Shown here one piece after another: positions 5,527 to 51,518 of a stretch of DNA of 64,000 nt. Position 1 is the first letter of the stretch. The number at the start of each line of letters is the position of its first letter. Origin of the DNA: a bacterium (GTDB taxonomy: Bacteria > Actinomycetota > Acidimicrobiia > Spongiisociales > Spongiisociaceae); contig JAPPGV010000089.1 in NCBI GenBank assembly GCA_028821235.1, positions 93,839-157,838 of the forward strand, given 5' to 3'. The translations under genes were made by a program, and so were the position numbers. The notes below the pieces were generated by a model, which worked only from the letters and a program-made list of their open reading frames with translations, had not been told where the DNA came from and made no database searches.

Positions 5527-5571
5527 CTCTCCGATCACGGGTAGCCGGTTCTCACCGGCCACCGTTTCTGG

Positions 5572-6540: not shown

Positions 6541-6542
6541 GG

Positions 6543-8099: not shown

Positions 8100-8171
8100 T
8101 ACCAGCGTCCGGCTCACCGTGGTCCTCTCACCCTGGTCCTCCTTGGGTGACCTGACCATAATGCCACCGGA

Positions 8172-9320: not shown

Positions 9321-9535
9321 TCGTCCGCGCCGACATGGCGTCGATCGTCTGGCGGATCACCGTCGCCGAAGGCGAACGGGTGCGAGCCGGGCAGGAGCTC
9401 CTCATCCTCGAGTCGATGAAGATGGAGATGCCCGTCATTGCTCCGGTGGCCGGGACAGTGGTAAACATCCCGGTGGCGGAGGGAGACGTGATCGAGGCCG
9501 GTGACGCGCTGGTGCGGATCGAACGCAGCCGGTGA
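9317..9535 (+). CDS. stand-alone biotin carboxyl carrier protein (biotinyl domain, about 72 aa)
   Basis: GTG start overlapping the sucC-like stop (GTGA). Contains LILESMKMEMPVIAPVAGTV with the MKM biotinylation motif of biotin_lipoyl domains. The alternative ATG at 9335 is in frame. 4-nt overlap with the downstream gene. Confidence 0.7.
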   Translation: MIVRADMASIVWRITVAEGERVRAGQELLILESMKMEMPVIAPVAGTVVNIPVAEGDVIEAGDALVRIERSR

Positions 9536-10419: not shown

Positions 10420-10472
10420 AAAAGACGGGGTTTGGTTGGCCCGCGATGCCCCTACCTGGGGTTTTGTTTCCG
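10393..10472 (+). promoter_or_regulatory. conserved ~80-nt upstream element, copy B, in the leader of the carboxyltransferase gene
   Basis: cttgggagggtgctgaaaaagacggggtttggttggcccgcgatgcccctacctggggttttgtttccggctctcgggcc. The same blocks as copy A (aaagacg, ggttggcccgcgat, acctggg, ttt.gtt.ccgg, cgggcc) are conserved. It lies 63 nt before the GTG at 10536 and is followed by the ACCCT-cgt-AGGGT hairpin and the GGAGG SD. Its 5' end overlaps the last codons of the sucD-like gene. Confidence 0.5.
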
Positions 10473-10535
10473 GCTCTCGGGCCAACGGGACATTCTTCAG
10501 TACCCTCGTAGGGTCATGAGCAGGATGGAGGCGAA

Positions 10536-12092: not shown

Positions 12093-12179
12093 CCAGGAGG
12101 AGACGGTTGTGGCGCCGGTGGCGCGATCCCACCTGCTTACCCGAGACCTGGAGAGGCCCACTGCGAAAGCGAGGAGATA

Positions 12180-13529
12180 GTGGCTGATCGGATCATCATC
12201 GAGAACGCTGCCATCGTGACGATGAACGAGGAGGACGATGTCATCTTCGACGGATCGATGGTCATCGAGGGCAACCGGTTAGTCGCCGTCGGAGGATCCG
12301 AGGCGGCGTCCGGATACGACCGCGCCACCGCGAAGGTCATCGACGCCGGCGGCAAAGCGGCGCTGCCGGGATTCGTCGACCTCCACTACCACACCGCCAT
12401 CGGAAAGGGCTACTGCGACCATCTGGATCTGTGGGAGATCCTGCAGGGGTTCTGGTATCCCATGATCCGGGCGATCAATCCCGAAGAGGCCTACTGGGCG
12501 GCCATGGCCAGTTACAGCGAGTCTCTGAAGGCCGGTGTCACCACCGCCAACGACATGTTCCGCCAACTCCCGGCCCTGGCGCGGGCGGCAGTCGACAGCG
12601 GGATCCGGGTGGTTCTCTCCAACGACATAGCCGACCCGGAGCACGACCTCGACGTGATCGAGGACAACGAATCGGCCTACCACGAGTGCCACGGGATGGG
12701 CGACGGGCGGGTGGAGGTCTACGTGGGTATCGAGTGGCTACCCCTCGCGTCCGAGCAACTGCTGGTGGACTGCCGGGCGCTGGCCGACCAGCTTGGGACC
12801 GGTATCCACATCCACCTGAACGAGTCCCTCGGCGAGGTCGAGATCTCCAAGCAGGCGTTCGGCGGCCGCCGGCCCACCGAGGTGGCATACGACACCGGGA
12901 TCCTGGGACCGGATTGCGTGGCCGCCCACTGCGTGCACCTATCGGACCGGGAGATCGGGCTCATGAGCGAGACAGGAACCCATATCTCCCACAACCCCAC
13001 CTCCAATGCCAAGCTCGGCAACGGTATCGCCCGGCTGCCCGAGATGCTGGAGGCAGGCCTCAACGTCGGCCTGGGCCACGACTCGGCGGAGGGAACCAAC
13101 AGTTGCGACCTGTTCCAGGTGATGAAGTGGGCGTCGTTGGTTCATCGGGCCGAGCGGAAGGACGCGTCGATCCTGCAGGCGCCCGCCATCCTGGGCATGG
13201 CGACCAGGAACGGCGCGCGTGCCCTCGGCCACGAGACGGGCGAGTTGAGCGTAGGAAAGGTGGCGGACGTGATCCTGGTCAACCTGCAGAACCACCACTT
13301 CACCCCTTGGGTGCCGGGCAACAAGATCCACCTCATGTCACACCTGGTCTACAGCGCGGAGAGCGCCGCGGTCGACACGACCATCGTGGACGGCACGGTG
13401 GTGATGGAAGGGCGCGAGTTCCTGGTCTTCGACGAGGAGGAGGTGCTGGCGAAGGCGACCGAGAGCTTCTTCACCTGCATCGACCGGATGGAGGTCCCCG
13501 AGGAGTACGCCGGGCTTCTCGATCGCTAG
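12180..13529 (+). CDS. amidohydrolase, TRZ/ATZ family (guanine/MTA-deaminase, chlorohydrolase-like)
   Basis: GTG start with GAGGAG SD. MADRIIIENAAIVTMNEE, LPGFVDLHYHTAIG (HxH), HIHLNES, GHD and VADVILV motifs characteristic of TRZ/ATZ-family amidohydrolases (MtaD/SsnA/AtzA-like). Confidence 0.85.
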   Translation: MADRIIIENAAIVTMNEEDDVIFDGSMVIEGNRLVAVGGSEAASGYDRATAKVIDAGGKAALPGFVDLHYHTAIGKGYCDHLDLWEILQGFWYPMIRAINPEEAYWAAMASYSESLKAGVTTANDMFRQLPALARAAVDSGIRVVLSNDIADPEHDLDVIEDNESAYHECHGMGDGRVEVYVGIEWLPLASEQLLVDCRALADQLGTGIHIHLNESLGEVEISKQAFGGRRPTEVAYDTGILGPDCVAAHCVHLSDREIGLMSETGTHISHNPTSNAKLGNGIARLPEMLEAGLNVGLGHDSAEGTNSCDLFQVMKWASLVHRAERKDASILQAPAILGMATRNGARALGHETGELSVGKVADVILVNLQNHHFTPWVPGNKIHLMSHLVYSAESAAVDTTIVDGTVVMEGREFLVFDEEEVLAKATESFFTCIDRMEVPEEYAGLLDR

Positions 13530-29148: not shown

Positions 29149-29584
29149 GTGCGTCCCTTCTGTATTCGGGGCTACTCAAGCGCAGGCGACTCACCACCTC
29201 GATGTGAGAGTAGGTAGACTATAGGATGACTGTCAAGTAACCCGATGAAAGAATATTCGGGCACCCTAATCACATATACTCTGAATTGAAGTCGGGCCTT
29301 TTGGCCTAGTGGCCGCTGGTCAAGGCGACGTGCTTCGGACGTTCCACGATCGCTCGCGGTGTAACCGTTCGGTGCCGCTATCCGGATACCGGGCGGTTAC
29401 GAATCCGTAGCTTACGAGTGGCTACTCGCTCCACCGGATCAGATCCTCCCGCGCGACTGACCCAGGGCCGAGTACAGCCCGGTAGGGTCCGGCTTGTGTT
29501 CGATGTTTCCGAGTACCGGGGTACAGCTTGGCTGTCCGTACTCTCTCAAGGCGGCGGCTGGTCGGTCGGGGACGGGCTTCTCCC

Positions 29585-29701
29585 ATGATCGGATGGATAC
29601 TGGGGATCGTGGTGGGGCTGTGGATACTTGTTCTGCTCGGGGTGATGCTGCTGGGCGCATGGACAATGATCCAGAAGTGGCGCAGCAAGAAGCAGCAGTG
29701 A
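29585..29701 (+). CDS. possible small hydrophobic membrane peptide (38 aa), speculative
   Basis: ATG...TGA ORF encoding MIGWILGIVVGLWILVLLGVMLLGAWTMIQKWRSKKQQ (one TM helix plus basic tail). It is below the 60-aa cutoff of the ORF track. No strong SD. Lies in an otherwise non-coding ~840 bp stretch. Confidence 0.2.
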   Translation: MIGWILGIVVGLWILVLLGVMLLGAWTMIQKWRSKKQQ

Positions 29702-29986
29702 GGGGCTGATCGCCGACTCTTCCTGGAGTTCCAGGTCCGGACGACAGGGACGCCGAGGGGACAGGGAAACGCCGAGGGCCTGCCGGGTGAGGCCGTGGGG
29801 CGCAAGAAGACGAAGATCGTGCGGATCGACGGCCTCCGCAGCCCGTGTCACGAGTACCCGAGCAGCTGCTCCGAGACCTGCTGGAGCTGACTCGCGGTCG
29901 CTCGTCGTCTGGTACCGGAAGCGATCGCTGTGCCTTGGAACCCCGTTAGGCTGCGATGCCACTGCCTGACATCACCGGAGCCGGAT

Positions 29987-30494
29987 GTGACTACGACATT
30001 GTCGGAGGAGATTGCCGCCTGGGACGGCAAATCCGCCGCCGTGTTGCAGTCGACATATGAGCGCCATAGCGCAGAAGAGGGTTTTGTTGCGACGATCCTG
30101 GCGCATATTTCAGATGTCGAATTGCAGCGGGCGGCGACCTGGCTGCTGAAGAAGTACCTCGAGGTGGGGAACTCGCTATCCGTTGCCGGTTGCCGTGCGG
30201 TCCTCGGAATGCTGTCGGGGCAGGAGCATTGGGAAGCCAAGCTGCACATCCTCCAGTGCCTGCCCTATCTGGACATTTCCGAGGACGACAGCGTCGGTGT
30301 CGGAGCAGTTCCTGGATGCCTGTCTTGAGAGCGAGCGCAAGTTCGTCAGGGCGTGGGCCTATAACGGATTCAACGAACTGGCGCTTCACTTCCCGCGGTA
30401 CCGGGACGAGGTGGACCGCATGCTTGCCCGGGCCGGCGAATCCGAATCTGCGTCGGTTCGGGCGAGGATTCGCAACATACGGAAAGGGCGCTGA
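29987..30494 (+). pseudogene. frameshifted hypothetical alpha-helical (HEAT-like repeat) protein, possibly DNA-alkylation-repair-like
   Basis: GTG at 29987 (GGAG SD) opens MTTTLSEEIAAWDGKSAAVLQSTYERH...LPYLDISEDD, ending at 30328. The reading frame then continues in the +1 frame (SVSEQFLDACLESERKFVRAWAYNGFNELALHFPRYRDEVDRMLARAGE...RKGR) to 30494. The two frames share the SV junction near 30290, indicating a single-base indel. Family assignment is weak. Confidence 0.4.
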
Positions 30495-30617
30495 CCTGTC
30501 CGACCGGCCCACTTATCCCTATTCACAGCTGCTTGCGTCGGCATCGGTGGTCACCAACGACCGGTGCTCGACGGAAGAACGGACCCTGGATGAGCTGCAG
30601 GAAGTCCGCTCGTCACG

Positions 30618-32981
30618 ATGCCGACTCACCCCGGATCCGGCTATGCGCGGGGCAGGGGGATGAAGGGTCTGGACGGAACTTCCCGGGCCCTCCGGAGAAA
30701 CCGGCATGGACGGGCCGGAGGCCTGGGCGCCGTCACGTTGCTGCTGGCCGTCACCCTGGTGGTACCGCCTGGTGCCGCGTACGGCGCCTCCCCGGATGGA
30801 TCAGCACCGCTCGCGCAGGCGGAGAGGGATCGGTTGGCGAGGGAGTTCGCGGCCGTGCTCAACCTGCGGGAAGCTCCCGACTCGATGTGCCTCTCGGTGA
30901 TGCTGGATGGTGATCCGATCTTCGAATCGCGGTCCGGTACCGCCTTCACCCCCGCGTCCTTGATGAAGGTGGCCACTGCCGCGGCTGCCTTCGAGGTGAT
31001 GAGCCCGGACGAGGTCTTCACCACGGAAGTGTTTGTCCGGACCGAGGACCTCGAGTCGATCACCGACGGCGTCCTGACGGGCGACGTGTACCTCGTCGGT
31101 CAGGGCGACCCGGTGCTGTCCACGCCCCGCTTCATCAACCGCTACGAGGTGCCGGTGGCCCACACCGACATCACGGGCCTGGCCAACCAGGTGATGGACG
31201 CCCTATCCGCCCATGGCGTCAGGAGGATCGAGGGCCGGATCGTGGGAGACGAGTCGTGGTATCCCGACAAGGAGCGCGACTACTCCGGGGAGGTTATCGC
31301 CGGCGAGACGGACCCGGTGTGGAGACGCTCCTTCGTGACCGCCAACCACTCCGGACCGCTGTCGGCCCTGCTCCTCAACAGCGGGTTCTCGCGGTATTCC
31401 AGCTCGGTATTCTCCGCGGGCCGCCGCCAGAGCGTGCGGGCGGCGCAGCCCGCGCAGCACGCCGCTTCGGTATTCGACGACTTCCTCGAGGCGCGACGGA
31501 TGGTGATCACGCGGCGGCCGGTGGCGGGCGTGGCGCCGGCTCCGAGCGAGCGGACCATGCTCGGGGCGGTCGAATCCCCGCCTCTGTCCGAGATCGTGGC
31601 TCGCATGCTGACCCGTTCCGACAACACCATCGCCGAGATGCTGCTGAAGGAGATCGGCCGCCGGGGCGGGGGCTCGGACCGCGCCTCTGCGGTGGCCGAT
31701 GTTCAGACCATCCTCCGGGACAAGTTGGGGCGGGCGGCGGACGGGTTGCTGATCGCCGATGGCTCGGGCCTGTCCTACTCCAACCGCCTCACCTGCGGCG
31801 CGGTCGCCGGACTGCTGGAGGAGGCCGGCCCCGGTTCGCCGCTGGTGGAGGGTCTGGCCGTGGCGGGCGAGACGGGCACTCTGAGAAACTGCCACCCCGT
31901 CCGGTCTAGGGGAAACCAGGACCAGCTCCTTACCGTCAAGGGCAAGACGGGCTCGCTGGACCATGTGATCTCCCTGGCGGGGACGGCTGTGGCGGCCGGC
32001 GGCGAGGCGATCACGTTCTCGATGATCGCGAACCAGCCAAACATCATCCTCCTCGGATCCTGCAACCGTCTCCGCAGGACGCTCCTGAACGCCGCCGCCA
32101 ACTACACGTACGGTCCCGCCGGGCCGGGTATTCCTGTCCATGCGGGAGATCGCGCCGCGCTCGTGGCGTTGTTCAACGACACGGGCGGGGAGGGCTGGTT
32201 CAACGCGTGGAGCTGGAAGACCGGCGCGCACCCGAGCAGGTGGCACGGTGTGGCCACCGACTCCGAGGGAAGGGTCACCGGGATCGACCTGAGCGGCCCG
32301 TTCGGTAACGGCTTGACGGGATCGATACCGGAGGAGATCGGCCGGTTGAGCGAGCTCGTCCGGCTCGATCTTTCCGGCAACGACCTGTGCGTGCCCCGGT
32401 CCATCGTAGACAGCTTGCCGAGCACCGGGGTCGGGACCTGTCCCGTGTTCGTCGACGCGATGGGGAACACTCATGAGGCGGCGCTGGAAGCCCTGGCCGG
32501 AAGGGGGATCCTGGACGGCACCGAGTGCGCGGACGGCATCTGTCCGAACGAGCCGATCAAGCGATGGACCATGGCGGTGTGGCTGGTTCGGGCGCGCGAC
32601 GGCCGCGAGCCATCTGCGGTCTCCACGTCGTCGTTCGCCGACGTGGACACGGATGCGTGGTGGCTTCCCTACGTGGAGCGGCTGTCGGAACTCCGCATCA
32701 CCGCAGGATACGCGCTCCAGCCGCTACGTTTCTGCCCTGACCGCCCGGTAACACGGGACGAGATGGCGTCGTTCCTGGTGCGCGCCTTCGACCTCGAAGA
32801 CGCCCCTCCAGCAGGATTCGGCGATACCGGTGGAAGCGTCCACCGGGCAGCCATCGACGCCCTATGGGCCGCCAGAGTCACGGCCGGATGCCAGGCGAAC
32901 CCGCCGCTCTACTGCCCCGCCCAAGCGGTCACCCGAGCCGAGATGGCGACGTTCCTCGCCCGATCTCTCGGCCTCGGCTGA
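30618..32981 (+). CDS. D-alanyl-D-alanine carboxypeptidase/endopeptidase (PBP4/DacB, peptidase S13) fused to a leucine-rich-repeat region and three C-terminal SLH domains
   Basis: 787 aa. Signal peptide (MKGLDG...VPPGAAYGA; the alternative start at 30660 gives the same mature protein). SxxK motif ASLMKV, SDN motif TRSDNT and KTG motif KGKTGSL. LRR segment GRVTGIDLSGPFGNGLTGSIPEEIGRLSELVRLDLSGNDL. Three S-layer-homology-like repeats (F.D....W...YVE.L...I.AGY). Confidence 0.8.
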   Translation: MPTHPGSGYARGRGMKGLDGTSRALRRNRHGRAGGLGAVTLLLAVTLVVPPGAAYGASPDGSAPLAQAERDRLAREFAAVLNLREAPDSMCLSVMLDGDPIFESRSGTAFTPASLMKVATAAAAFEVMSPDEVFTTEVFVRTEDLESITDGVLTGDVYLVGQGDPVLSTPRFINRYEVPVAHTDITGLANQVMDALSAHGVRRIEGRIVGDESWYPDKERDYSGEVIAGETDPVWRRSFVTANHSGPLSALLLNSGFSRYSSSVFSAGRRQSVRAAQPAQHAASVFDDFLEARRMVITRRPVAGVAPAPSERTMLGAVESPPLSEIVARMLTRSDNTIAEMLLKEIGRRGGGSDRASAVADVQTILRDKLGRAADGLLIADGSGLSYSNRLTCGAVAGLLEEAGPGSPLVEGLAVAGETGTLRNCHPVRSRGNQDQLLTVKGKTGSLDHVISLAGTAVAAGGEAITFSMIANQPNIILLGSCNRLRRTLLNAAANYTYGPAGPGIPVHAGDRAALVALFNDTGGEGWFNAWSWKTGAHPSRWHGVATDSEGRVTGIDLSGPFGNGLTGSIPEEIGRLSELVRLDLSGNDLCVPRSIVDSLPSTGVGTCPVFVDAMGNTHEAALEALAGRGILDGTECADGICPNEPIKRWTMAVWLVRARDGREPSAVSTSSFADVDTDAWWLPYVERLSELRITAGYALQPLRFCPDRPVTRDEMASFLVRAFDLEDAPPAGFGDTGGSVHRAAIDALWAARVTAGCQANPPLYCPAQAVTRAEMATFLARSLGLG

Positions 32982-33961: not shown

Positions 33962-34171
33962 ATGCCTCGACGGGTTAGGGTCCGTCAAGCCCTTCGGATT
34001 GTTGAGGGGGATGGCTGGGAACTGGCGCGGACACGTGGCAGCCACCGACAGTACCGGCATCCCGTGAAACCAGGAACCGTCACCATTCCTGGCCATATGA
34101 ACGATCAATTACATCCGAAGACATGGAAGAGTATTCTCAAGCAAGCAGGACTTGATCAGGAGCCCTTATGA
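33962..34171 (+). CDS. hicA: type II toxin-antitoxin system HicA family toxin (mRNA interferase)
   Basis: 69 aa. MPRRVRVRQALRIVEGDGWELARTRGSHRQYRHPVKPGTVTIPGH...KTWKSILKQAGL matches the HicA/YcfA consensus. Preceded by a low-GC promoter-like region. Stop overlaps the hicB start (ATGA). Confidence 0.8.
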   Translation: MPRRVRVRQALRIVEGDGWELARTRGSHRQYRHPVKPGTVTIPGHMNDQLHPKTWKSILKQAGLDQEPL

Positions 34172-34533
34172 AGTTGCGGTATGCGGTGGTGTACGAGGCC
34201 GGCACGCACAACCTCTCGGCATACGCCCCTGACCTACCAGGATGTGTTGCTACCGGCGGGAGTCTTGACAAGATCAGACAGAACATGCGCGAAGCGATGA
34301 CCCTTCACTTGGATCTCATCCGGGAGCACGGCGAGCCTTTTCCCCAACCGATGACGTCAGTAGGTGAGGCCATCGAGGATTATCGTCGCTATCACGAAGA
34401 GTCCGATGAACAGTCGGAGAACAGCATTCTCGAGTCGCCCGCGATCGCGGAGTTCATCGAAGTCGATACATCTCGGGGTGCCCTGGCGCGTGACTTTGGC
34501 CACATCTCCGGCGATGTACGACAGATCGCCTAG
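34168..34533 (+). CDS. hicB: type II toxin-antitoxin system HicB family antitoxin
   Basis: 121 aa. MKLRYAVVYEAGTHNLSAYAPDLPGCVATGGSLDKIRQNMREAMTLHLDL matches the HicB N-terminal (RNase-H-like) domain consensus. Translationally coupled to hicA. Confidence 0.8.
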   Translation: MKLRYAVVYEAGTHNLSAYAPDLPGCVATGGSLDKIRQNMREAMTLHLDLIREHGEPFPQPMTSVGEAIEDYRRYHEESDEQSENSILESPAIAEFIEVDTSRGALARDFGHISGDVRQIA

Positions 34534-39905: not shown

Positions 39906-40544
39906 CTAGACGATCCTCCTCCGGCTCGCCCAGTTGGCGAGCTCGTAGCGGTTGCTTAGCTGGAGTTTCCTGAGCACCGCCGAAACGTGGGACTCGACCG
40001 TCTTGTGGCTGATGTACAGCCGGTGCGCCACCTGCTTGTAGGAGAAGCCGCGGGCGATCAGGCGCAGTACCTCCTGCTCACGGGTGGTCAGCTGATCCAG
40101 TTCGGGATCCTCCGGAACGGGGATGGTGGCGGCGAAGGTGTCCAGCACGAATCCGGCCAGCATGGGGGAGAAGACCGCATCGCCCGCATGGACCCGCCTG
40201 ATCGCGTCGACCAGAGCCTCCGGGCGGATCGACTTGGTGACGTATCCACGGGCCCCGGCCCTGATCATGGCGATGACGTCCTCGGCCGCGTCCGACACGG
40301 ACAGGGCGAGGAACTTCACCTGCGGATGGGTCTGGAGCACGTTCTCCAGGATCGCGAGGCCTCCGCCTCCCGGCATGTGGACATCCACCAGCGCCACGTC
40401 GGGAGGATCGAGCCGCAGGGCGTCGATGGCATCGTCCACATCGCCGGCGGAGCCGATGAGTTCTATGTCGTGCGGATCGGACAGTTCCGTCCTGACCCCG
40501 GAGAGGAACAGCCGGTGGTCATCCACCAGAAAGACGCGGATCAT
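39906..40544 (-). CDS. LuxR/NarL-family two-component response regulator
   Basis: 212 aa. Receiver domain (VFLVDDH, phospho-acceptor D in VALVDVHMPGGGG) plus C-terminal LuxR HTH (TTREQEVLRLIARGFSYKQVAHRLYISHKTVESH). Start overlaps the sensor kinase stop (ATGA). Confidence 0.9.
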   Translation of the reverse strand: MIRVFLVDDHRLFLSGVRTELSDPHDIELIGSAGDVDDAIDALRLDPPDVALVDVHMPGGGGLAILENVLQTHPQVKFLALSVSDAAEDVIAMIRAGARGYVTKSIRPEALVDAIRRVHAGDAVFSPMLAGFVLDTFAATIPVPEDPELDQLTTREQEVLRLIARGFSYKQVAHRLYISHKTVESHVSAVLRKLQLSNRYELANWASRRRIV

Positions 40545-41689
40545 CGGGGCTCTCCTCCCAGATACAGATGGACTTCGGTACCTTCCCCCGGCGTCGACGA
40601 GATGGTGGCGGTGCCGCCCTTGCCCTCCATCCGGCCGACAATGGACGCGGCGATTCCGTGCCGGTCTCCGGCCACCGCGGTGGGGTCGAACCCGACGCCG
40701 TGGTCGGAGATCCAGACGTCCGTTGCGTCCCTACCCACCTCGGAGTAGACGGAGATTCGATCGGTGCCCGAGTGCCGGGCGGCGTTGTTCAGCGACTCGC
40801 CCGTGGCCGCGATGATCGCCCTGACGTCGTCATCGAGGGGGCGGTCCCCCACCGTGACCAGCTGGACCCGGACGTCGAAGGTGTGTTCGACCCGGTCGGC
40901 CTCCTCCTGCAGTGCGGCGGAGAGCAGCTCCGGATCGTCCGCAGGCCTCGTGTCGTAGAGCCATCGTCGTAGCTCCCTTTCCTGGACCCGGGCCAGCGTC
41001 ACCATCCTTCGCGAGTCGTCGGTCCGCTGGATGAGGGCCAGCGTCTGGAGTACCGAGTCGTGGAGGTGGGCGGCCATGTCGGCCCGTTCCTCCTGGCGGA
41101 TACGCTTCCGGCGTTCGGCCCCCAGATCTGCTCCTAGTTTCCATACCCACGGTCCGAAGAGCACGACCATGCCGACTCCGGTGATCAGCACCGCCAGCAG
41201 TACGGTTCCGACGGCAGGAGCCGCCACGTTGGCGAGGATCGACACCCCGGCAAGCGCCAGCACGATCCCGATCACCGTGCGCGCCCGGAACCTTCCGCTC
41301 TGCGGATCGAACAGTCCCAGGATGGCCGAGCGGGGATCGATGTCACCCCTGTCCATCAGGAAGGCGATGCCGAAGCTCAGTGCCAGTCCGGGCCAGACCC
41401 AACCGTCTCCGCTCCAGATCCCCAGGCTGCGGAGCAGCAGCAGCGAGCCGATGAACATCAGGACGTAAGCCGCCCGCCGCTCCCCGTCCGCCTCCGGAGC
41501 AGGATCCTGGCGGGCGGTCTTGTCCAGGGTCAGCGCCCACAGCACCAGGTAGAGGAGTATTCCCAGTCCCCATACGAGCGCGAGAACCAGGAAGGCGGCG
41601 CGGACATAGAGATCGGGGATGCCTAGTTGGTCGGCGATCCCTCCGGCCACGCCGGCCACCAGGCGGTTCCGTTCCCGCCGTGCCGGCAT
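40541..41689 (-). CDS. PspC-domain sensor histidine kinase (HisKA_3 + HATPase_c)
   Basis: Start at internal Met MPARRERNRLVAGVAGGIADQLGIPDLYVRAAFLV (PspC domain; ATG 41687-41689, GAGAGG SD). C-terminal H-box AAHLHDSVLQTL and ATPase N/G boxes (ESLNNAARHSG, DHGVGF). The track N-terminal 107 codons are not credible. Confidence 0.85.
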   Translation of the reverse strand: MPARRERNRLVAGVAGGIADQLGIPDLYVRAAFLVLALVWGLGILLYLVLWALTLDKTARQDPAPEADGERRAAYVLMFIGSLLLLRSLGIWSGDGWVWPGLALSFGIAFLMDRGDIDPRSAILGLFDPQSGRFRARTVIGIVLALAGVSILANVAAPAVGTVLLAVLITGVGMVVLFGPWVWKLGADLGAERRKRIRQEERADMAAHLHDSVLQTLALIQRTDDSRRMVTLARVQERELRRWLYDTRPADDPELLSAALQEEADRVEHTFDVRVQLVTVGDRPLDDDVRAIIAATGESLNNAARHSGTDRISVYSEVGRDATDVWISDHGVGFDPTAVAGDRHGIAASIVGRMEGKGGTATISSTPGEGTEVHLYLGGEPR

Positions 41690-41840
41690 TGCCGTGGCCT
41701 CTCGTGCGGTATGGCTTCGCATGAGGCTTATGTTGGCATCGTCCGGTTGCCGTTCGGGCCCGGAACCGGAGATATACCCCCGGCCGGCGGCCGGTCTGGG
41801 GGATGTTTCAGGGTGATACCCCACAGACTCAGGGTCCGGA

Positions 41841-43079
41841 ATGATGGATGATATGGGTATGACGAACAGCAGCCACCCATCGCTCCGCAGACCCGGCGAG
41901 GGTCGCTGGATTGCAGGGGTGGCGCTCGGAATCGCCCACCGCCTCGGCATCGAGGCTTGGATCGTCCGGGTGGCCTTCATCGTCCTCGTGACCGTCGGTG
42001 GCGTCGGCATCTTCCTCTACGCGGCAGGCTGGATCCTGATCCCGGATGAAGGCGAGACCGAGTCGATCGTCCGGGGATGGTCCGGCCGACCCTCGGCGCG
42101 CCGGTGGGTGGGCGTCATCCTCATCGGGCTCGCGGCGATCGTGCTGCTCGCCGAGACCAGGTGGGTGAGGGGCGAGCTTGTGTTTGCCCTCGTCCTCCTG
42201 GGGATCGGAGTATTGCTGTACCGCGGCGACCTGAGCGCGCCGGAACAGCAGAGCCCGGATTCCGCAAGTGTCCCGCAGGCGGCGCCTGCCGACCAGGTCG
42301 AAGAGCCTGGGGCCGGCCCTCCCTCCTCCTTGCCCGCCGGTCCCGTGCCGGCGCCGCCGCGGGATAAGTCCCACCTCGGTCGCGTGACGGTCGGAGCCGC
42401 CTTGATCTCGCTGGGATTACTCGGGTTCCTCGACGGCGTGGTACCCGGGTTCAATCCGGCTTTCCGCCACTACATGGCGTTGCTGGTAGCGGTGGTGGGT
42501 CTCGGGCTGGTGGTAGGCGCCTGGTTCGGGCGGATCGGCGGTCTGGTTGCCCTGGGCATCGTGCTCGTGCCCGTGGTGCTGGTGTCGCTCGTGTCCGACA
42601 AGGTCGAGTTCAGGACGACCGATAACGGACCGGTGGTGCTGGTGTCGTTGTCATCGGACACGGCTGAGTTCAGCACGTCCGCCGGAGACGGATACCACCG
42701 TCCGGCCGGAGTGGAGCAGATCCCCGATGCCTACCGTCTCGGTGTCGGGAGTCTGCTGGTCGACATGAGGCAGGTCGACTTCACGGGCAGGGTGGTCCGA
42801 GTCAAGGCCGAGGTCGGCATCGGTGAACTGATCGTCTACCTGCCCCAGGATGTCGCGGCCGACGTGTCCGGACGGGTAGGGATCGGGTCGATACGCACCT
42901 GGGACCATCTTGGCAGCACCTCCAGGCAAGGGATCGGAATAACGTCCGACTATGTCTGGGAGGGCGCCCACGGAATGATCATCCTCGATGCCAGCGTGGG
43001 GCTGGGTGAGATCGAGGTCCGGACGTTGCCCGGAGCGCCAAGGCCATCGACAACGGTGACCGTGGGGGACAGCCGATGA
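41841..43079 (+). CDS. PspC-domain membrane protein with LiaF-like (DUF2154-type) C-terminal domain
   Basis: 412 aa. N-terminal PspC motif RRPGEGRWIAGVALGIAHRLGIEAWIVRVAFIVL. Several TM segments. C-terminal beta-repeat domain (VKAEVGIGELIVYLP...GIGSI...DASVGLGEIEV) resembles the LiaF-like cell-wall-active-antibiotic response domain. Contains an internal ~51-nt tandem repeat. Confidence 0.7.
   Translation: MMDDMGMTNSSHPSLRRPGEGRWIAGVALGIAHRLGIEAWIVRVAFIVLVTVGGVGIFLYAAGWILIPDEGETESIVRGWSGRPSARRWVGVILIGLAAIVLLAETRWVRGELVFALVLLGIGVLLYRGDLSAPEQQSPDSASVPQAAPADQVEEPGAGPPSSLPAGPVPAPPRDKSHLGRVTVGAALISLGLLGFLDGVVPGFNPAFRHYMALLVAVVGLGLVVGAWFGRIGGLVALGIVLVPVVLVSLVSDKVEFRTTDNGPVVLVSLSSDTAEFSTSAGDGYHRPAGVEQIPDAYRLGVGSLLVDMRQVDFTGRVVRVKAEVGIGELIVYLPQDVAADVSGRVGIGSIRTWDHLGSTSRQGIGITSDYVWEGAHGMIILDASVGLGEIEVRTLPGAPRPSTTVTVGDSR
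42571..42680 (+). repeat. imperfect ~51-nt tandem direct repeat inside the PspC/LiaF-like gene
   Basis: ccgtggtgctggtgtcgctcgtgtccgacaaggtcgagttcaggacgacc and ccggtggtgctggtgtcgttgtcatcggacacggctgagttcagcacgtcc, separated by 9 nt. They encode VVLVSLVSDKVEFRTT / VVLVSLSSDTAEFSTS. Confidence 0.7.
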
Positions 43080-43400: not shown

Positions 43401-44420
43401 TCACAACTGCTCCCGCTGCCAGCCGAGGTTGGAGAGGAGCACGATCCCGGTCCCGACCAGGAGGGCCTGGGGGTTGGCTATGGAGACATCGGCGAACAGC
43501 CACAGCCAGAGCATCTGGAAGACCGGCGAGAAGAACATGATCCTCTGGACGCTCAGGCTCGAGGTCACGTAAAGGGAGTACCGGTGGCTGAGGGCGCCGG
43601 CCGCATTGAACACTCCGGTCGCGGTCAGGAGGCCCACCATGTTCCACGTGACGTCGAAACTGTCGCCGGACGGCGGGAAGAACAGGAAGCTTCCCACCAG
43701 GGTCAGTGGTAGGGCGAGTGCCCGTCCGGCTACCGCCGCGAATGTGGCGTTCCAGACCAGGTCGTGGGGATTGCGGGTCGGCCACCCCATCATGCGTCCG
43801 ATCGAAACGGTTCCCCATAGGCTTCCGACTGCGGTCGCGGTGCCCATGAACGCCACGGCTATACCCAGCCAGTTGAGGGTGCTTACCGCGGCCGTCTCCG
43901 ACCAGATGACCAGCGCGGCGCCCAGGAACGAGAAGAACATGAGCGTCCAGTGCTTGCCACCGATGACGTGCGGGGACGATCGCTGCCCGCCGGAGATCTT
44001 CCTGCCCAGCCGGGCCGCCATCCAGACCATCCCGATCAGCATCAGCTGGAAGATGATGGTCACCACCAGCGGATCGATCAGCGTGGCGGCCCATACCCAG
44101 AAGGCCAGGTCGAGGGCGAAGCAGATCGCCATCCACAGGACCGGGGCTCGAAGCATGTCCTGCGCGTTCCGCACCTTGACGGGCTCCCCGCCGTCTCCCC
44201 AGTAGAACAGCAGCCGCCGGGTGTTCTCTATCCAGCGCTTGTTCTCGGCCGGGACCAGGAAGAACACCGGGATGAGCATGACGACCTGGAAGACCAGCAG
44301 CCACGATCGCCACACGAATGGGTCGTTGCTGACGTGGGTGTAGAGGTAGAACAGAGGTAACCAGGAGCCGGTCAGGACCGCGGACACAGCCCACAACATC
44401 CCCTTGGTGTTCGGGTTCAC
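43401..44420 (-). CDS. hypothetical polytopic integral membrane protein (Trp-rich)
   Basis: 339 aa with about 9 hydrophobic helices and many Trp residues. No family recognisable by eye. The opposite-strand ORF 43384-44394 is a shadow. Confidence 0.55.
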   Translation of the reverse strand: MNPNTKGMLWAVSAVLTGSWLPLFYLYTHVSNDPFVWRSWLLVFQVVMLIPVFFLVPAENKRWIENTRRLLFYWGDGGEPVKVRNAQDMLRAPVLWMAICFALDLAFWVWAATLIDPLVVTIIFQLMLIGMVWMAARLGRKISGGQRSSPHVIGGKHWTLMFFSFLGAALVIWSETAAVSTLNWLGIAVAFMGTATAVGSLWGTVSIGRMMGWPTRNPHDLVWNATFAAVAGRALALPLTLVGSFLFFPPSGDSFDVTWNMVGLLTATGVFNAAGALSHRYSLYVTSSLSVQRIMFFSPVFQMLWLWLFADVSIANPQALLVGTGIVLLSNLGWQREQL

Positions 44421-49656: not shown

Positions 49657-50442
49657 ATGGATTCGGTGGCCTCGGCAGTGGGCGCAGGCAAGACCAGGCG
49701 TACTCGCCGCTTCGTGGGTCGGGACGGGCGAGCGTTGCTGGTCGCCATCGACATGCAGCTGGCCACGGGGTCCGGTCCGGCGCTGGACGTGGTGGAGGCG
49801 GTGTCCGAAGGGCAACCCGACGGCATCCTGGTCACCTGGCAGATTGCCCGGCGCTACCCCGAGACCTTCGCGGAGTGCGGTCTGATTCTCCGCATGGATG
49901 GTGCGGCCACCCACCTTGATCCGAATGCGGACGGCGACGGCCTCTCGCTGATGTATCGAGCCGAGGAGGCGGCGGTGATCGGCGCGGATGCGGTCATCCT
50001 GATGGTCTACCCGGGTATGCGCGAGGAGAAGCGCTCGCTGCGCCGGCTGGCTGCTCTGGTGGGGGAGTGCGAGCGGATCGGGATGCCGGTGATTGCCGAG
50101 TCCATTCCCGGAGGGTGGCATCGGGATGTGCCTTGGGATACGGACAACATCGCCCGGAGCGCCCGGATCTGCGTGGAGATCGGTGCCGACGCCGTCAAGA
50201 CCATGGCTCCTGCGCAGGTCGAGGAGCTCGGTGACGTGGTGGAAGGATGCGAGGCCCCGCTGTTCGTGCTGGGTGGTCCCAAGAGGGACAGCGAGCACGA
50301 AGTGGTCACGTACGCGGCCGGCGTGGTGACCGCGGGAGCCTCGGGCGTCTGCTTCGGGCGCAACGTCTGGGGAGCTTCCGACCCCGGGGAGATGGTCCGG
50401 CGCCTCGGCCGAGTCGTCCACGGTAACGGGCAGCGAGCATGA
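49657..50442 (+). CDS. class I aldolase, DeoC/FbaB (DhnA)-type
   Basis: 261 aa. TIM-barrel aldolase pattern with the Schiff-base Lys region (GADAVKTM). Confidence 0.65.
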   Translation: MDSVASAVGAGKTRRTRRFVGRDGRALLVAIDMQLATGSGPALDVVEAVSEGQPDGILVTWQIARRYPETFAECGLILRMDGAATHLDPNADGDGLSLMYRAEEAAVIGADAVILMVYPGMREEKRSLRRLAALVGECERIGMPVIAESIPGGWHRDVPWDTDNIARSARICVEIGADAVKTMAPAQVEELGDVVEGCEAPLFVLGGPKRDSEHEVVTYAAGVVTAGASGVCFGRNVWGASDPGEMVRRLGRVVHGNGQRA

Positions 50443-51518
50443 AGGGCTTCCGGGTCTGGCCCGTGCTCGGCTTCCTGGCGGTCTTAGCGGTTGCTTCGGC
50501 CTGTGCCGACACCGGCGACGGCCCAGGAGAGACGCCTTCGGCGGAATGGGGGGCGGCGGACTTCAACGGCGACGGATCGGTCCGCATCGCGGTGGTCACA
50601 GAGGGCTCCCGAGACGATGGGGCCTACTACCAGGCCCTGGTCGAGCGGGTCGAGGAGATATCGGCGGCTGAGGGATACGAGGCGCCGCTGATCGTGGACC
50701 AGGTCGCTCCGGCCGACGCCCGGGCCGAGTTGAACAACGTGGTGGCCCAGGGTGCGGACATCATCGCCATCGGCTCCAGCAACCTGGCGGATGGCAACGA
50801 GGACCTGTTCCTGGAGCATGAGGAGATCTTCTGGTACTGCAACTGCGGGTCCGGTTACCAGGACACTCCCGGCCTGCTGCGGAGTGCCGACAGCGGGGCC
50901 GAACTGGGCATCTCGGCCGGATACGCGACCGGTTTGCTGCTGGATGCTCGTGACGCCGACCTGGCGGTGTTCCTTGGATGCTGCGATCTCAACTTCGAGG
51001 TGGAGTCCTTCCTGGCCTTCCGGCTCGGTCTTCATCTGGTGGACGAGTCGTTCGACGCCATCTACGTGCCCACCGGCAACTTCCCCTTCGACTTCAACAA
51101 CACCGCCGGAGCCACCGAGGCATACAACGCCGCGGTCGCCGAGGGCGTGGCGGCGGTCTACCCGTTCCTGGGCGGCGCCCACGAGCCGATCACCCGGCTC
51201 GCCAACGAGGACGGGCTGGTCGTCCTGACCGCCGGTTCGTCCAGAGGCTGCGAACGAGAAGACCTGGACTACGACATTGAGGTGATGTTCGATGCCGGCG
51301 ACTTCCTGACGCCGATCTTCGACGAGATCATCGCCGGCACTGCCGAAGAGGGGGGAGCGCGCCGCTTCACCGTGGGGGTCGATCCCGAGGTGGGGGCCAA
51401 CCTGTGCGACGGAACCCCCGACCAGGATCAGGCGCTCACCGATCTGAACGCCCGGATCGGGGCCGGCCAGTTCGAGGAGGAGATCTCCAGGATCCTCGCC
51501 GAGGCTTACGGCTTCTGA
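50439..51518 (+). CDS. BMP-family ABC transporter substrate-binding lipoprotein (nucleoside/purine-binding, PnrA-like)
   Basis: 359 aa. Signal peptide with lipobox LAVASAC. Overlaps the previous stop by 4 nt. Confidence 0.75.
   Translation: MKGFRVWPVLGFLAVLAVASACADTGDGPGETPSAEWGAADFNGDGSVRIAVVTEGSRDDGAYYQALVERVEEISAAEGYEAPLIVDQVAPADARAELNNVVAQGADIIAIGSSNLADGNEDLFLEHEEIFWYCNCGSGYQDTPGLLRSADSGAELGISAGYATGLLLDARDADLAVFLGCCDLNFEVESFLAFRLGLHLVDESFDAIYVPTGNFPFDFNNTAGATEAYNAAVAEGVAAVYPFLGGAHEPITRLANEDGLVVLTAGSSRGCEREDLDYDIEVMFDAGDFLTPIFDEIIAGTAEEGGARRFTVGVDPEVGANLCDGTPDQDQALTDLNARIGAGQFEEEISRILAEAYGF

What the first reader, a model, noticed from the sequence alone, without database searches (positions are those of the whole stretch)
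30618..32981. PBP4/DacB-type D,D-peptidase fused to a leucine-rich-repeat block and three SLH domains
Seen in sequence: one 787-aa secreted protein contains a complete class-C PBP4 catalytic triad of motifs (SLMK, SDN, KTG). A plant-like LRR stretch follows (LSGPFGNGLTGSIPEEIGRLSELVRLDLSGNDL). Three tandem S-layer-homology-like repeats (F.D....W...YV..L......GY) lie at the C-terminus. Established knowledge: DacB enzymes are normally ~480 aa and soluble periplasmic; SLH domains anchor proteins to pyruvylated secondary cell-wall polymers; LRRs mediate protein-protein contacts. Inference: a cell-wall-anchored peptidoglycan hydrolase with an extra recognition module, an uncommon architecture.
Basis: partly seen in the sequence, partly recalled or inferred. 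Interest (0 to 1): 0.6.

Follow-up and report, generated by a model that had tools for sequence, protein, structure and literature searches.

The report
Wall-anchored PBP4 enzyme with LRR unit
A sponge-symbiont actinobacterium encodes a real, conserved three-part protein: a peptidoglycan-trimming enzyme (PBP4), one small leucine-rich-repeat unit and a three-repeat cell-wall anchor (SLH); it is a new shuffle of known domains rather than a new kind of system.

Summary
ORF 30618-32981 (+) encodes 787 aa, though the true start is probably ATG 30660. It holds a peptidase-S13/PBP4 domain with intact SxxK, SxN and KTG motifs. After that comes a 101-aa capped mini-LRR unit, then three SLH repeats that model as a canonical SLH trimer.

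It is not a fusion artefact. The same architecture occurs in 75 of the 120 best database relatives and at 19 loci of species-representative genomes. All are sponge-associated Acidimicrobiia (Ca. Spongiisociaceae and relatives).

It is one self-contained unit: an N-cap, two 24-aa plant-type repeats and a two-Cys C-cap. The same unit is repeated up to 20 times in giant proteins, with cap-to-cap spacing stepping by about 24 aa. It also occurs fused to the same SLH type.

In the PBP4 family the unit entered once. It later lost one repeat (as in the query) or was deleted entirely (one lineage). It is the most conserved segment of the protein (dN/dS about 0.13).

Best reading: a DD-peptidase retained in the wall by SLH binding to a pyruvylated wall polymer, with the LRR unit as a conserved adaptor or spacer. 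A CsaB gene was not found in the DNA available. New variant of a known kind; moderate interest.

The parts
30618..32981 (+). Whole ORF, 787 aa including stop: PBP4, capped LRR unit and 3 SLH repeats
   Evidence: ORF list; GC3 0.85; the exact protein is on record on a 189.5-kb metagenome scaffold.
30660..30785 (+). Probable true start (M15) and Sec-type signal peptide, residues 15-56: Arg-rich n-region, h-region LGAVTLLLAVTLVV, c-region PPGAAYG|A
   Evidence: Most homologues start at the equivalent Met. A purine-rich GGGGCAGGGGG stretch lies just upstream of ATG 30660. Residues 1-63 are disordered in the model. The signal peptide is read from the sequence by inspection; no predictor was run.
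30813..32111 (+). Peptidase S13 / class-C low-molecular-weight PBP domain (residues about 66-498)
   Evidence: PF02113 1.2e-56; TIGR00666 151.4 bits against cut-off 107.8. Profile hits to R39 DD-peptidase 2wke 8e-39, B. subtilis PBP4a 1w5d 1e-33 and E. coli PBP4 2ex2 3.5e-28. Foldseek 1w79 E=1e-22, TM(target) 0.64-0.68.
30957..30968 (+). SxxK motif (S114-L-M-K117), the catalytic serine
   Evidence: S114 and K117 are invariant in alignment A1.
31617..31625 (+). SxN motif (S334-D-N336)
   Evidence: Invariant in A1.
31944..31952 (+). KTG motif (K443-T-G445)
   Evidence: Invariant in A1.
32139..32273 (+). N-cap of the LRR unit (residues 508-552: HAGDRAALVALFNDTGGEGWFNAWSWKTGAHPSRWHGVATDSEGR)
   Evidence: The family profile aligns it with the N-cap of plant LRR-RK ectodomains, e.g. 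GSO1 residues 35-104. It forms two helices in the model. The same cap recurs 2-20 times in giant proteins. It is 41-47% identical to the units of P0275.
32274..32354 (+). LRR 1 (residues 553-579, VTGIDLSGPFGNGLTGSIPEEIGRLSE): a plant-specific-type repeat with a family-specific PFG insertion
   Evidence: LxxLxLxxNxLTGxIP pattern; G560, G563, G568 and P571 are invariant in A2. Beta strands in the model. dN/dS median about 0.13.
32355..32441 (+). LRR 2 fused to the two-Cys C-cap (residues 580-608, LVRLDLSGNDLCVPRSIVDSLPSTGVGTC; C591 and C608)
   Evidence: An exact 24-aa gap relative to 3-repeat relatives lies between LSGND(L) and CVPRS. C591 and C608 are invariant in A2. The same L.L.GTGLC...C ending occurs in the units of P0275.
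32448..32597 (+). SLH repeat 1 (residues 611-660): GILDG634, C637/C642, K-R649-W-T in place of TRAE
   Evidence: Family SLH HMM 67.9 bits. phmmer aligns it with a Sap SLH repeat, with G634 and R649 on the conserved Gly and Arg. Fold match.
32634..32789 (+). SLH repeat 2 (residues 673-724): W681, G697, T-R713-D-E; Y698 where relatives have Cys
   Evidence: Pfam SLH 32.7 bits when scored alone; family HMM 62.6 bits; aligned to Sap W/G/K. Codon 32709-32711 is TAC.
32817..32972 (+). SLH repeat 3 (residues 734-785): H742, G757, C758/C766, T-R773-A-E
   Evidence: Family HMM 72.4 bits. It is part of the modelled trimer, pLDDT above 90. R773 is invariant.

Best explanation
The gene encodes a secreted class-C low-molecular-weight penicillin-binding protein. 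It belongs to peptidase family S13, the PBP4 / DacB / Actinomadura R39 kind of DD-carboxypeptidase and DD-endopeptidase.

Its C-terminus carries two added modules. The first is one self-contained capped mini-LRR unit. The second is an S-layer-homology (SLH) trimer.

Proposed mechanism:
1. The protein is exported by a Sec-type signal peptide.
2. [quoted passage not shown] This keeps an otherwise soluble enzyme inside the wall of a single-membrane bacterium that lives in the flushed matrix of a sponge.
3. The PBP4 domain trims D-Ala-D-Ala ends and/or cuts 4-3 cross-links in the surrounding peptidoglycan.
4. The LRR unit sits between enzyme and anchor. It acts as a rigid, strongly conserved spacer or adaptor that probably binds a conserved partner of the bacterium's own envelope.

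Shown here: the domain identities, the conservation and evolutionary history of the architecture, purifying selection on every part, and the presence of ligand-binding residues in the SLH trimer.

Inferred: enzymatic activity, the identity of the wall ligand, and any partner of the LRR unit.
For: Enzyme: Pfam and NCBIfam scores lie far above their cut-offs. SxxK, SxN and KTG are invariant. The fold matches R39, PBP4a and PBP4.

Anchor: the three repeats model at pLDDT 85-96. They superpose on the Sap and SpaA SLH trimers (TM 0.78-0.86), including structures solved with pyruvylated ligand. The residues that Blackler et al. [quoted passage not shown] Gly and Arg are present in all three repeats (G634/G697/G757; R649/R713/R773). 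Trp is present in repeat 2 (W681). This gives one complete groove, G634 + W681 + R773, equivalent to SpaA groove 1.

SLH is the lineage's general display device. The same Cys-type trimer is fused to RCC1/WD40, trypsin-like, Big_1, fn3, cadherin-like and LRR proteins in the same metagenomes and genomes. PBP4 relatives also occur with the trimer at the N-terminus (P0099, P0103, P0112, P0252, P0254, P0256). The pairing of PBP4 with SLH therefore occurs in both domain orders, which suggests more than one fusion event.

Not an artefact: 75 of the 120 best relatives and 19 loci in 18 species genomes share the architecture.

LRR unit functional: it is the most conserved segment, with 72-92% amino-acid identity when the whole protein is at 57-62%. 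Its median dN/dS is about 0.13, against 0.22 for PBP4 and 0.35 for SLH. Repeats are lost only in exact 24-aa steps.
Against: - No pyruvyl-transferase (CsaB, PF04230) gene was seen in the fully scanned 64-kb window. None was seen in seven other contexts either. Whole genomes could not be searched, so the ligand is unverified.
- Two of the three grooves have His/Thr where canonical SLH has Trp.
- The query has Tyr at 698 where relatives have a conserved Cys, so its own repeat 2 may be slightly impaired.
- The LRR unit is modelled only at moderate confidence (pLDDT 63-84). It has just two repeats, a very small binding surface.
- One lineage (L020) deleted the unit cleanly and kept the rest, so the unit is dispensable there.
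- Genomic neighbours give no functional hint; they are transport and metabolic genes.
- No expression or biochemical data exist.
Confidence: 0.6

Rival explanations
1. The LRR unit is a host-facing 'eukaryotic-like' module. It binds a sponge protein, for recognition or to evade phagocytosis, and the PBP4-SLH protein is merely the carrier that displays it.
For: The LRR-bearing form is confined to one clade of sponge-associated Acidimicrobiia. LRR genes are significantly enriched in sponge-symbiotic versus free-living Actinobacteriota (PMC11706023). The same unit builds giant multi-unit proteins, and SLH-anchored LRR proteins occur in the same kind of genomes.
Against: The unit is the slowest-evolving part of the protein (median dN/dS about 0.13), which is the opposite of what a host-interaction surface under conflict usually shows. 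It has only two repeats. It lies between the enzyme and the wall anchor, so it is probably buried in the wall rather than exposed. One Spongiisociaceae lineage deleted it.
Confidence: 0.15
2. The SLH trimer does not bind a pyruvylated polymer here. It binds peptidoglycan itself or a different, non-pyruvylated wall glycopolymer, or it tethers the enzyme to another envelope layer.
For: No CsaB gene was found in any DNA examined. Two grooves have His/Thr instead of Trp13. Every repeat carries an extra Cys pair flanking the groove loop, a departure from the Bacillus and Paenibacillus models. A published survey found SLH/CsaB retained in only 'a few examples within Actinobacteria' (bioRxiv 10.1101/2021.05.31.446380).
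Against: Gly29 and Arg43 equivalents are conserved in all three repeats, and one groove has the full triad. The fold is very close to ligand-bound SLH trimers. Less than about 100 kb of any one genome was searched, so the absence of csaB carries little weight.
Confidence: 0.2
3. The LRR unit has no ligand. It is a rigid spacer left by domain shuffling from an SLH-LRR surface protein, and it is retained only because it sets the distance between enzyme and anchor.
For: SLH trimers and cap-LRR units are neighbours in several other proteins (P0275, P0333, P0318 and others). The copy number of repeats varies (3, 2 or 0) without loss of the rest.
Against: A passive spacer would not be expected to be the most conserved segment, with an invariant family-specific PFG insertion and conserved non-structural positions. 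The true linker next to it (residues 593-610) evolves quickly (dN/dS 0.2-0.96).
Confidence: 0.2
4. The long ORF is an assembly or frameshift artefact joining a dacB gene to a separate LRR-SLH gene.
For: In one other assembly the gene is split into a 513-aa PBP4 ORF (P0082) and a 274-aa LRR-SLH ORF (P0121) on the same 122,709-bp contig. The PBP4 ORF ends in out-of-frame residues after NYTYGP.
Against: In the window the frame is uninterrupted. The same single ORF is found at 19 loci, several on Mb-scale assemblies titled 'chromosome'. The junction and LRR codons show purifying selection in this frame. The split copy is the exception and carries a visible frameshift tail.
Confidence: 0.02

Closest known systems
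Class-C low-molecular-weight PBPs (peptidase S13): Actinomadura R39 DD-peptidase, Bacillus subtilis PBP4a (DacC), E. coli and H. influenzae PBP4 (DacB)
   Same: The catalytic domain has SxxK, SxN and KTG at comparable spacing. Pfam and TIGRFAM membership is met. The fold matches (1w79, 1w5d, 2ex2, 3a3d).
   Different: Those enzymes are about 450-490 aa and have no wall-binding extension. This protein adds about 290 aa (LRR unit plus SLH trimer). Identity to them is only 19-24%. It fails the E. coli DacB equivalog model (87.7 bits against cut-off 527). The segment 218-274 (probably domain III) is modelled poorly.
SLH-trimer anchoring of surface proteins to pyruvylated wall polymer (B. anthracis Sap, Paenibacillus alvei SpaA and SlhA)
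   Same: Three tandem repeats fold into the three-pronged spindle. Gly29 and Arg43 equivalents are present in all repeats, and one groove has the complete Trp/Gly/Arg triad.
   Different: The cargo is an LMW-PBP rather than an S-layer protein. Each repeat has an extra Cys pair (GC...xCP). Two grooves have His/Thr for Trp. The host is an actinobacterium, and CsaB is unverified.
Cap-LRR unit proteins found here: giant poly-unit proteins (e.g. P0246, 2,901 aa, 20 caps) and SLH plus cap-LRR proteins (P0275, P0333, P0318)
   Same: The N-cap sequence is the same (DRxALxALYxxTxGxxW...W.GV.TD..GRVT.L.L) and the LRRs are 24 aa long. In P0275 the two-Cys C-cap and the Cys-type SLH trimer are also shared. 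Unit identity is 41-47% and SLH identity 42%.
   Different: Those proteins carry 2-20 units and no enzyme domain. Here a single, minimal unit (104 aa from cap to SLH) is spliced between an enzyme and the anchor, and it has a family-specific PFG insertion in LRR 1.
Plant LRR receptor-kinase ectodomains (BAK1/SERK, BRL3, PXY/TDR, PSKR1, GSO1): N-terminal cap plus plant-specific LRRs
   Same: The repeat type is the same (LxxLxLxxNxLTGxIPxxLGxL, 24 aa) and so is the cap fold. Profile E-values reach 2e-31. Structural matches cover 84-114 columns at rmsd 2.1-3.9 A with 24-34% identity.
   Different: There are two repeats instead of 5-29. The N-cap lacks the plant Cys pair, and Pfam LRRNT_2 was not hit. 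The nearest sequence relatives are bacterial, so nothing points to recent transfer from plants.
NEAT-LRR-SLH surface protein of the Bacillus cereus group (NCBIfam NF033190; known as IlsA from memory)
   Same: It combines an LRR segment and SLH repeats in one wall-bound protein.
   Different: Only the SLH region matches (residues 610-723, 30.2 bits against cut-off 1275). There is no NEAT domain, the LRR type differs and the cargo differs. It is not a member.
Eukaryotic-like proteins (LRR class) of sponge symbionts
   Same: An LRR-bearing protein in a sponge-associated lineage in which LRR genes are enriched (PMC11706023).
   Different: Published surveys count Pfam LRR hits per genome. This unit is sub-threshold for those models, so it would be missed. 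Neither SLH nor S-layer is mentioned in that paper.

Membership tests
Peptidase S13 / class-C LMW PBP (PBP4, DacB, R39) | Profile membership (Pfam PF02113; NCBIfam TIGR00666) above curated cut-offs | tested here: met
   PF02113 192.8 bits (cut-off 22.8); TIGR00666 151.4 bits (cut-off 107.8).
Peptidase S13 / class-C LMW PBP (PBP4, DacB, R39) | The three active-site motifs SxxK, SxN and KTG | tested here: met
   S114LMK117, S334DN336 and K443TG445; all invariant in 27 relatives.
Peptidase S13 / class-C LMW PBP (PBP4, DacB, R39) | Penicillin-binding fold with the extra domains inserted between SxxK and SxN | tested here: inconclusive
   Foldseek gives 1w79 E=1e-22 and TM(target) 0.64-0.68 over about 510 columns. 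Residues 218-243 and 256-274 have pLDDT below 50, so the innermost inserted domain is not resolved.
Peptidase S13 / class-C LMW PBP (PBP4, DacB, R39) | DD-carboxypeptidase/endopeptidase activity and covalent beta-lactam binding | not testable with these tools
   Needs purified protein.
E. coli-type DacB equivalog (NCBIfam NF008322) | Score above the equivalog cut-off | tested here: not met
   87.7 bits against cut-off 527. It is a distant S13 member, not the enterobacterial orthologue.
SLH domain trimer | Three tandem repeats of about 55 aa matching the SLH profile | tested here: met
   Whole-protein PF00395 score is 39.3 bits (cut-off 20.8). Alone, repeat 2 scores 32.7 bits, repeat 1 scores 11.7 bits and repeat 3 gives no hit. 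The family profile against Sap 3pyw gives E=6e-19; phmmer gives 7.6e-7.
SLH domain trimer | Three-pronged spindle fold with a central three-helix bundle | tested here: met
   The model has pLDDT 85-96. TM(target) is 0.78-0.86 and rmsd 2.1-3.5 A to 3pyw, 6bt4, 6cwc and 7sv3 over about 172 columns.
SLH domain trimer | Ligand residues SLH-Trp13, SLH-Gly29 (GIIxG) and SLH-Arg43 (TRAE) lining the grooves (PMC6081394) | tested here: met
   Gly: G634, G697, G757. Arg: R649, R713, R773. Trp only in repeat 2 (W681); H619 (or T618) and H742 elsewhere. That makes one complete groove (G634 + W681 + R773) and two with His/Thr for Trp.
SLH domain trimer | Co-occurrence with the CsaB pyruvyl transferase (PF04230) and a pyruvylated wall polymer | tested here: inconclusive
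   No PF04230 gene among about 60 ORFs of the window or in seven related contexts.
Leucine-rich repeat, plant-specific type with N-cap | Pfam LRR models above the gathering score | tested here: not met
   For the query, LRR_1 scores 18.2 against 20.6, LRR_4 14.2 against 27, LRR_8 12.1 against 27 and LRR_14 11.8 against 40; there is no LRRNT_2 hit. Three-repeat relatives do carry PF13855, PF12799, PF23598 or PF00560 hits.
Leucine-rich repeat, plant-specific type with N-cap | 24-aa LxxLxLxxNxL(T/S)GxIPxxLGxL repeats recognised by profile and fold comparison | tested here: met
   The family profile hits GSO1 2e-31, FLS2 7e-25, ERL1 3e-24 and Leptospira LIC11098 1.6e-16. Foldseek matches to BAK1, BRL3, SRF6, SERK and PXY have E 2.6e-4 to 5e-3 and rmsd 2.1-3.9 A. 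Repeat loss occurs in exact 24-aa steps.
Leucine-rich repeat, plant-specific type with N-cap | A multi-repeat curved solenoid offering a concave binding face | tested here: not met
   There are only two repeats between the caps (three in most relatives). The model has pLDDT 63-84. It is a minimal capped unit, not a horseshoe.
Sponge-symbiont eukaryotic-like proteins (LRR class) | A eukaryote-type repeat domain in a lineage restricted to sponge hosts, with a role in host interaction | tested here: inconclusive
   The lineage is sponge-associated judging by record titles and names (Ca. Spongiisocius, SB06xx bins). LRR enrichment is published. A host-interaction role is untested and is disfavoured by the low dN/dS.

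The most novel reading that the evidence does not exclude
The cap-LRR unit may be the building block of a lineage-wide surface toolkit in sponge-symbiont Acidimicrobiia. The same unit is strung 2-20 times in giant proteins and hung on the wall by the same Cys-type SLH trimer. On this reading, the single, highly conserved copy in the PBP4 protein is a docking site. It would couple peptidoglycan remodelling to that toolkit by binding a giant LRR or ELP protein, or a host factor. A housekeeping PBP would then be a component of the symbiosis interface. One possible role is local trimming of peptidoglycan stems where surface proteins are inserted or where the host senses muropeptides.
Probability: 0.12. 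Interest if true: 0.7.

Novelty: new variant of a known kind. Interest (0 to 1): 0.4.

Why it matters
Low-molecular-weight PBPs are usually thought of as free periplasmic or secreted enzymes. This family shows a lineage that pins one to the wall with an SLH trimer, in both domain orders. That gives a testable example of how single-membrane bacteria position peptidoglycan hydrolases.

The inserted LRR unit links the enzyme to a large, little-described family of modular cap-LRR proteins in sponge symbionts. This unit is sub-threshold for the Pfam LRR models on which surveys of "eukaryotic-like proteins" rely, so such surveys may undercount it.

If the unit proves to be a docking module, it would connect wall remodelling with the display of symbiosis proteins. 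If not, the finding remains a tidy case of domain shuffling with no wider consequence.

Tried and rejected
1. Fusion or frameshift artefact. Rejected: the frame is continuous, the architecture is conserved, and selection acts in frame.

2. csaB and wall-polymer genes nearby. All substantial ORFs of the window were scanned against Pfam, and Pfam-annotated contexts of SLH and LRR proteins in related genomes were read. No PF04230 was found. Whole genomes could not be searched, and I had no CsaB seed sequence, so this stays open.

3. Other SLH proteins in the window. A family SLH HMM against the six-frame translation found only the three repeats of this ORF.

4. Operon logic. The neighbours are an ABC-transporter binding protein (divergent), an SDR 27 nt downstream and HicAB, which give no functional link.

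5. Regulatory RNA, promoter or terminator in the 1.47-kb upstream gap and around the gene. There were no Rfam hits at E<=1 and no consensus sites.

6. Word-indexed homologue search with the LRR unit alone found only 5 hits. The exhaustive HMMER search was needed to reveal the giant cap-LRR proteins.

7. AFDB fold search for other PBP4-SLH architectures. The library was unavailable.

8. Literature. No paper held 'S-layer homology' together with Acidimicrobiia. None linked SLH to D-Ala-D-Ala carboxypeptidases of this type, or combined sponge symbionts, LRR and SLH.

9. Tat export. The RR in the n-region (LRRNRHG) does not fit the S/T-RRxFLK motif, so Sec export is assumed (by inspection).

10. 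Plant origin of the LRR. Not supported: the nearest relatives are bacterial units at 41-54% identity.

Full report
OBSERVATION

The ORF lies exactly at 30618..32981 on the + strand and encodes 787 aa. Its third-position GC is 0.85, like its neighbours.

- Pfam gives Peptidase_S13 at E=1.2e-56 and SLH at E=6e-10 for the whole protein.
- NCBIfam TIGR00666 (PBP4) scores 151.4 bits against a cut-off of 107.8. The enterobacterial DacB equivalog model is not met (87.7 against 527).
All are invariant in a 27-sequence alignment spanning 44-92% identity.
- Most homologues begin at the query's Met15, and ATG 30660 is preceded by a purine-rich stretch. The real start is therefore probably 30660.
- Residues 15-56 read as a Sec-type signal peptide (by inspection). 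Residues 1-63 are disordered in the model.

SLH PART

Scored alone against Pfam, only repeat 2 passes (32.7 bits). Repeat 1 scores 11.7 bits and repeat 3 gives no hit. Independent evidence covers all three repeats:
- The family profile hits the Bacillus anthracis Sap SLH domain (3pyw) at 6e-19.
- The single sequence hits 3pyw at 7.6e-7.
- Both AlphaFold models place residues 611-787 at pLDDT 85-96. They superpose on the Sap and SpaA trimers, including ligand-bound structures, with TM(target) 0.78-0.86 and rmsd 2.1-3.5 A over about 172 columns.

Blackler et al. [quoted passage not shown] Each groove takes these residues from different repeats. In the query:
- Gly equivalents are G634, G697 and G757.
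- Arg equivalents are R649, R713 and R773.
- Trp is present only in repeat 2 (W681). H619 (or T618) and H742 stand in the other repeats.

One groove (G634 + W681 + R773, equivalent to SpaA groove 1) is therefore fully canonical. Each repeat also carries a conserved Cys pair flanking the groove loop (GC...xCP). The query alone has Tyr at 698, where 90% or more of relatives have Cys (TAC at 32709-32711).

LRR PART

On the query itself every Pfam LRR model is below threshold. The assignment nevertheless holds:
- The family profile aligns residues about 510-580 with the N-terminal cap plus first repeats of plant LRR receptor ectodomains (GSO1 2e-31, ERL1 3e-24, HSL1, TDR, PSKR1). It also hits Leptospira LRR proteins.
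- Relatives with one more repeat carry Pfam LRR hits.
- A dedicated model of residues 495-787 raises the LRR region to pLDDT 63-84. It matches BAK1/SERK, BRL3, SRF6, BIR and PXY ectodomains over 84-114 columns at rmsd 2.1-3.9 A and 24-34% identity.

The anatomy of the unit is:
- an N-cap (residues 508-552);
- LRR 1 (553-579, with an invariant PFG insertion);
- LRR 2 fused to a C-cap carrying two invariant cysteines (580-608; C591 and C608).

CONSERVATION OF THE ARCHITECTURE

The architecture is real and conserved. The counts below are for the query plus its 120 best relatives:

| Architecture | Number |
|---|---|
| PBP4 + cap-LRR + 3 SLH | 76 |
| PBP4 + 3 SLH, no LRR | 20 |
| PBP4 only | 16 |
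| SLH trimer at the N-terminus (P0099, P0103, P0112) | 3 |

A scan of one genome per species found the tripartite form at 19 loci in 18 genomes, several on Mb-scale assemblies titled 'chromosome'. The genomes are titled Ca. Spongiisocius variivorans, Ca. Spongiisociaceae, and Acidimicrobiia SB06xx, CO36xxx or APA bins. The window itself comes from a 189.5-kb metagenome scaffold (ROBB21-1_SAMN13943213). Its nearest relative is 92% identical (SB0664_bin_25). The taxonomy is Actinomycetota; Acidimicrobiia; Ca. Spongiisociales. The SB06xx series are sponge metagenome bins.

EVOLUTIONARY HISTORY

A neighbour-joining tree of the catalytic domain places all LRR-bearing genes in one clade, which implies a single gain.
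- Most members have three repeats (cap-to-SLH distance 133-137 aa).
- The query's subclade, and separately L007, lack exactly one 24-aa repeat (104 aa).
- L020 keeps the first residues of the cap (TKDRSA) and then jumps straight into SLH 1, a clean secondary deletion.

Pairwise Nei-Gojobori estimates against 14 loci give the following:

| Segment | Median dN/dS |
|---|---|
| LRR repeats | about 0.13 |
| PBP4 domain | about 0.22 |
| SLH trimer | about 0.35 |
| Linker 593-610 | 0.2-0.96 (range) |

LRR amino-acid identity stays at 72-92% when the whole protein is at 57-62%. The caveats are that the LRR segment has only 40 codons and that dS is saturated for the most distant pairs. Even so, the unit is clearly under strong constraint in this frame. 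That also disposes of the frameshift-artefact idea.

WHERE THE UNIT COMES FROM

An exhaustive HMMER search of 1.84 billion representatives gave 43,449 hits at E<=0.001. Mapping my family HMMs onto the 140 proteins among the best 150 that were new to the session gave:
- 82 giant proteins (median 2,024 aa, maximum 4,892 aa) with 2-20 copies of the same cap;
- 9 proteins that combine cap-LRR units with an SLH trimer;
- 25 SLH-only proteins, often with six repeats;
- 6 PBP4 + SLH proteins.

Cap-to-cap spacing is quantised, with peaks near 104, 128, 152, 176, 200, 228, 250 and 272 aa. That is a cap plus n repeats of 24 aa. The query's 104-aa module equals the smallest unit.

P0275 (1,082 aa, on a 3.2-Mb contig) has an N-terminal Cys-type SLH trimer that is 42% identical to the query's. 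It is followed by six units, each 41-47% identical to the query's unit. Its units end in the same L.L.GTGLC...C cap.

Other SLH cargoes in these genomes include RCC1/WD40, trypsin-like, Big_1, fn3, SWM and cadherin-like giants. SLH is therefore the lineage's general display device. The PBP4 gene appears to have picked up one unit from this toolkit.

MECHANISM

Shown: domain identities, intact catalytic and ligand-binding residues, conservation and selection.

Inferred from established knowledge of S13 PBPs and of SLH-polymer anchoring: after Sec export, the SLH trimer binds a pyruvylated secondary wall polymer and retains the DD-peptidase in the wall. There it trims pentapeptide stems and/or cleaves cross-links. 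PBP4 with SLH occurs in both domain orders, which suggests that retention is the selected property.

The LRR unit sits between enzyme and anchor and is the slowest-evolving part. It is best read as a rigid adaptor with a conserved, probably bacterial, partner. A host-facing 'eukaryotic-like' role is possible, because LRR genes are enriched in sponge-symbiotic Actinobacteriota (PMC11706023). It fits the low dN/dS, the two-repeat size and the buried position less well.

OPEN POINTS

- CsaB (PF04230) was not found in the window or in any context read. No whole genome could be searched.
- A published survey says the SLH/CsaB system persists in 'a few examples within Actinobacteria'. SLH hits are reported as common in Actinobacteria (PMC6801904).
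- The genomic neighbourhood is uninformative: metabolic and transport genes, HicAB, and a PspC-type two-component module 7 kb away.
- There is no riboswitch, promoter or terminator signal around the gene.

COMPARISON AND NOVELTY

Each part is a member of a known family. The exception is that the LRR unit fails the Pfam thresholds and is not a multi-repeat solenoid.

I found no paper describing an S13 PBP fused to SLH, or this tripartite form. Public annotations call these proteins 'D-alanyl-D-alanine carboxypeptidase' or 'hypothetical protein'.

This is a new variant of known kinds, namely SLH-anchored wall enzymes and LMW PBPs. It has an informative by-product: a modular cap-LRR unit family in sponge symbionts.

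Interest is 0.4. The finding is solid and tidy and of real use to people studying sponge-symbiont surfaces or PBP localisation, but it does not overturn anything.

Noticed in passing
proteins P0246-P0385; e.g. P0246, P0250, P0296, P0274: Giant proteins (median about 2,000 aa, up to 4,892 aa) are built from 2-20 tandem 'cap + n x 24-aa LRR' units. Cap-to-cap spacing is sharply quantised at about 104, 128, 152, 176, 200 and 228 aa. The cap, normally thought of as an N-terminal cap, is itself the repeated element.
   Followed up: partly
L087:8001-11249 (P0275) and the adjacent gene L087:11246-12559: A 1,082-aa protein has an N-terminal Cys-type SLH trimer followed by six cap-LRR units, each ending in a two-Cys C-cap. 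A 437-aa LRR gene follows immediately. This is the closest non-PBP relative of the query's C-terminal cassette.
   Followed up: partly
window 32709-32711 (codon 698): The query has Tyr (TAC) where 90% or more of relatives have the first Cys of the SLH-2 Cys pair (TGC). This leaves C706 without its presumed partner. It could be a real variant or a consensus or assembly error.
   Followed up: partly
P0082 (513 aa) and P0121 (274 aa), same 122,709-bp contig: In another assembly the orthologous gene is split by a frameshift just after NYTYGP into a PBP4 ORF and an LRR-SLH ORF. This is either a pseudogene or a sequencing error.
   Followed up: partly
P0099, P0103, P0112, P0252, P0254, P0256: Related PBP4 proteins carry the SLH trimer at the N-terminus instead of the C-terminus. 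This suggests that PBP4 and SLH were fused more than once.
   Followed up: partly
L020:10001-12040 (Ca. Spongiisociaceae OZ243930.1): This orthologue keeps 'TKDRSA', the first residues of the cap, and then runs directly into SLH repeat 1. It is a clean secondary deletion of the whole LRR unit.
   Followed up: yes
window 29149-30617: A 1.47-kb gap lies upstream of the gene, with slightly lower GC. It holds two overlapping + strand ORFs (29930-30328 and 30183-30494) that look like one frameshifted gene. There are no Pfam or Rfam hits.
   Followed up: partly
window 33962-34533: A HicA toxin (PF07927, 7e-21) and HicB-like antitoxin pair overlap by 4 nt, about 1 kb downstream of the PBP4 gene.
   Followed up: no
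window 39906-42010, continuing to about 43400: A LuxR-type response regulator, a PspC-domain histidine kinase and a divergent PspC-domain gene look like a LiaFSR-type envelope-stress module, about 7 kb from the wall enzyme. No link was shown.
   Followed up: no
window 298-13529: There is an unusual density of amidohydrolase-superfamily genes: four Amidohydro_1/3, one Amidohydro_2 and one amidase. The 840-aa member at 6543-9065 has a 370-aa N-terminal extension with no Pfam hit.
   Followed up: no
window 43401-44420 (-), 50439-51518 (+), 63327-63833 (-): Three well-supported ORFs by GC3 (339, 359 and 168 aa) have no Pfam match at E<=0.001 to 0.01.
   Followed up: no
L088:10001-19957 (P0264) and L089:10001-20059 (P0272, Ca. 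Aldehydirespirator OZ244832.1): Two proteins of 3,300 aa carry six SLH repeats (two trimers) together with fn3, SWM_repeat and cadherin-like domains. They are SLH-anchored 'eukaryotic-like' adhesin-type giants in sponge Acidimicrobiia, flanked by integrases and transposases.
   Followed up: no
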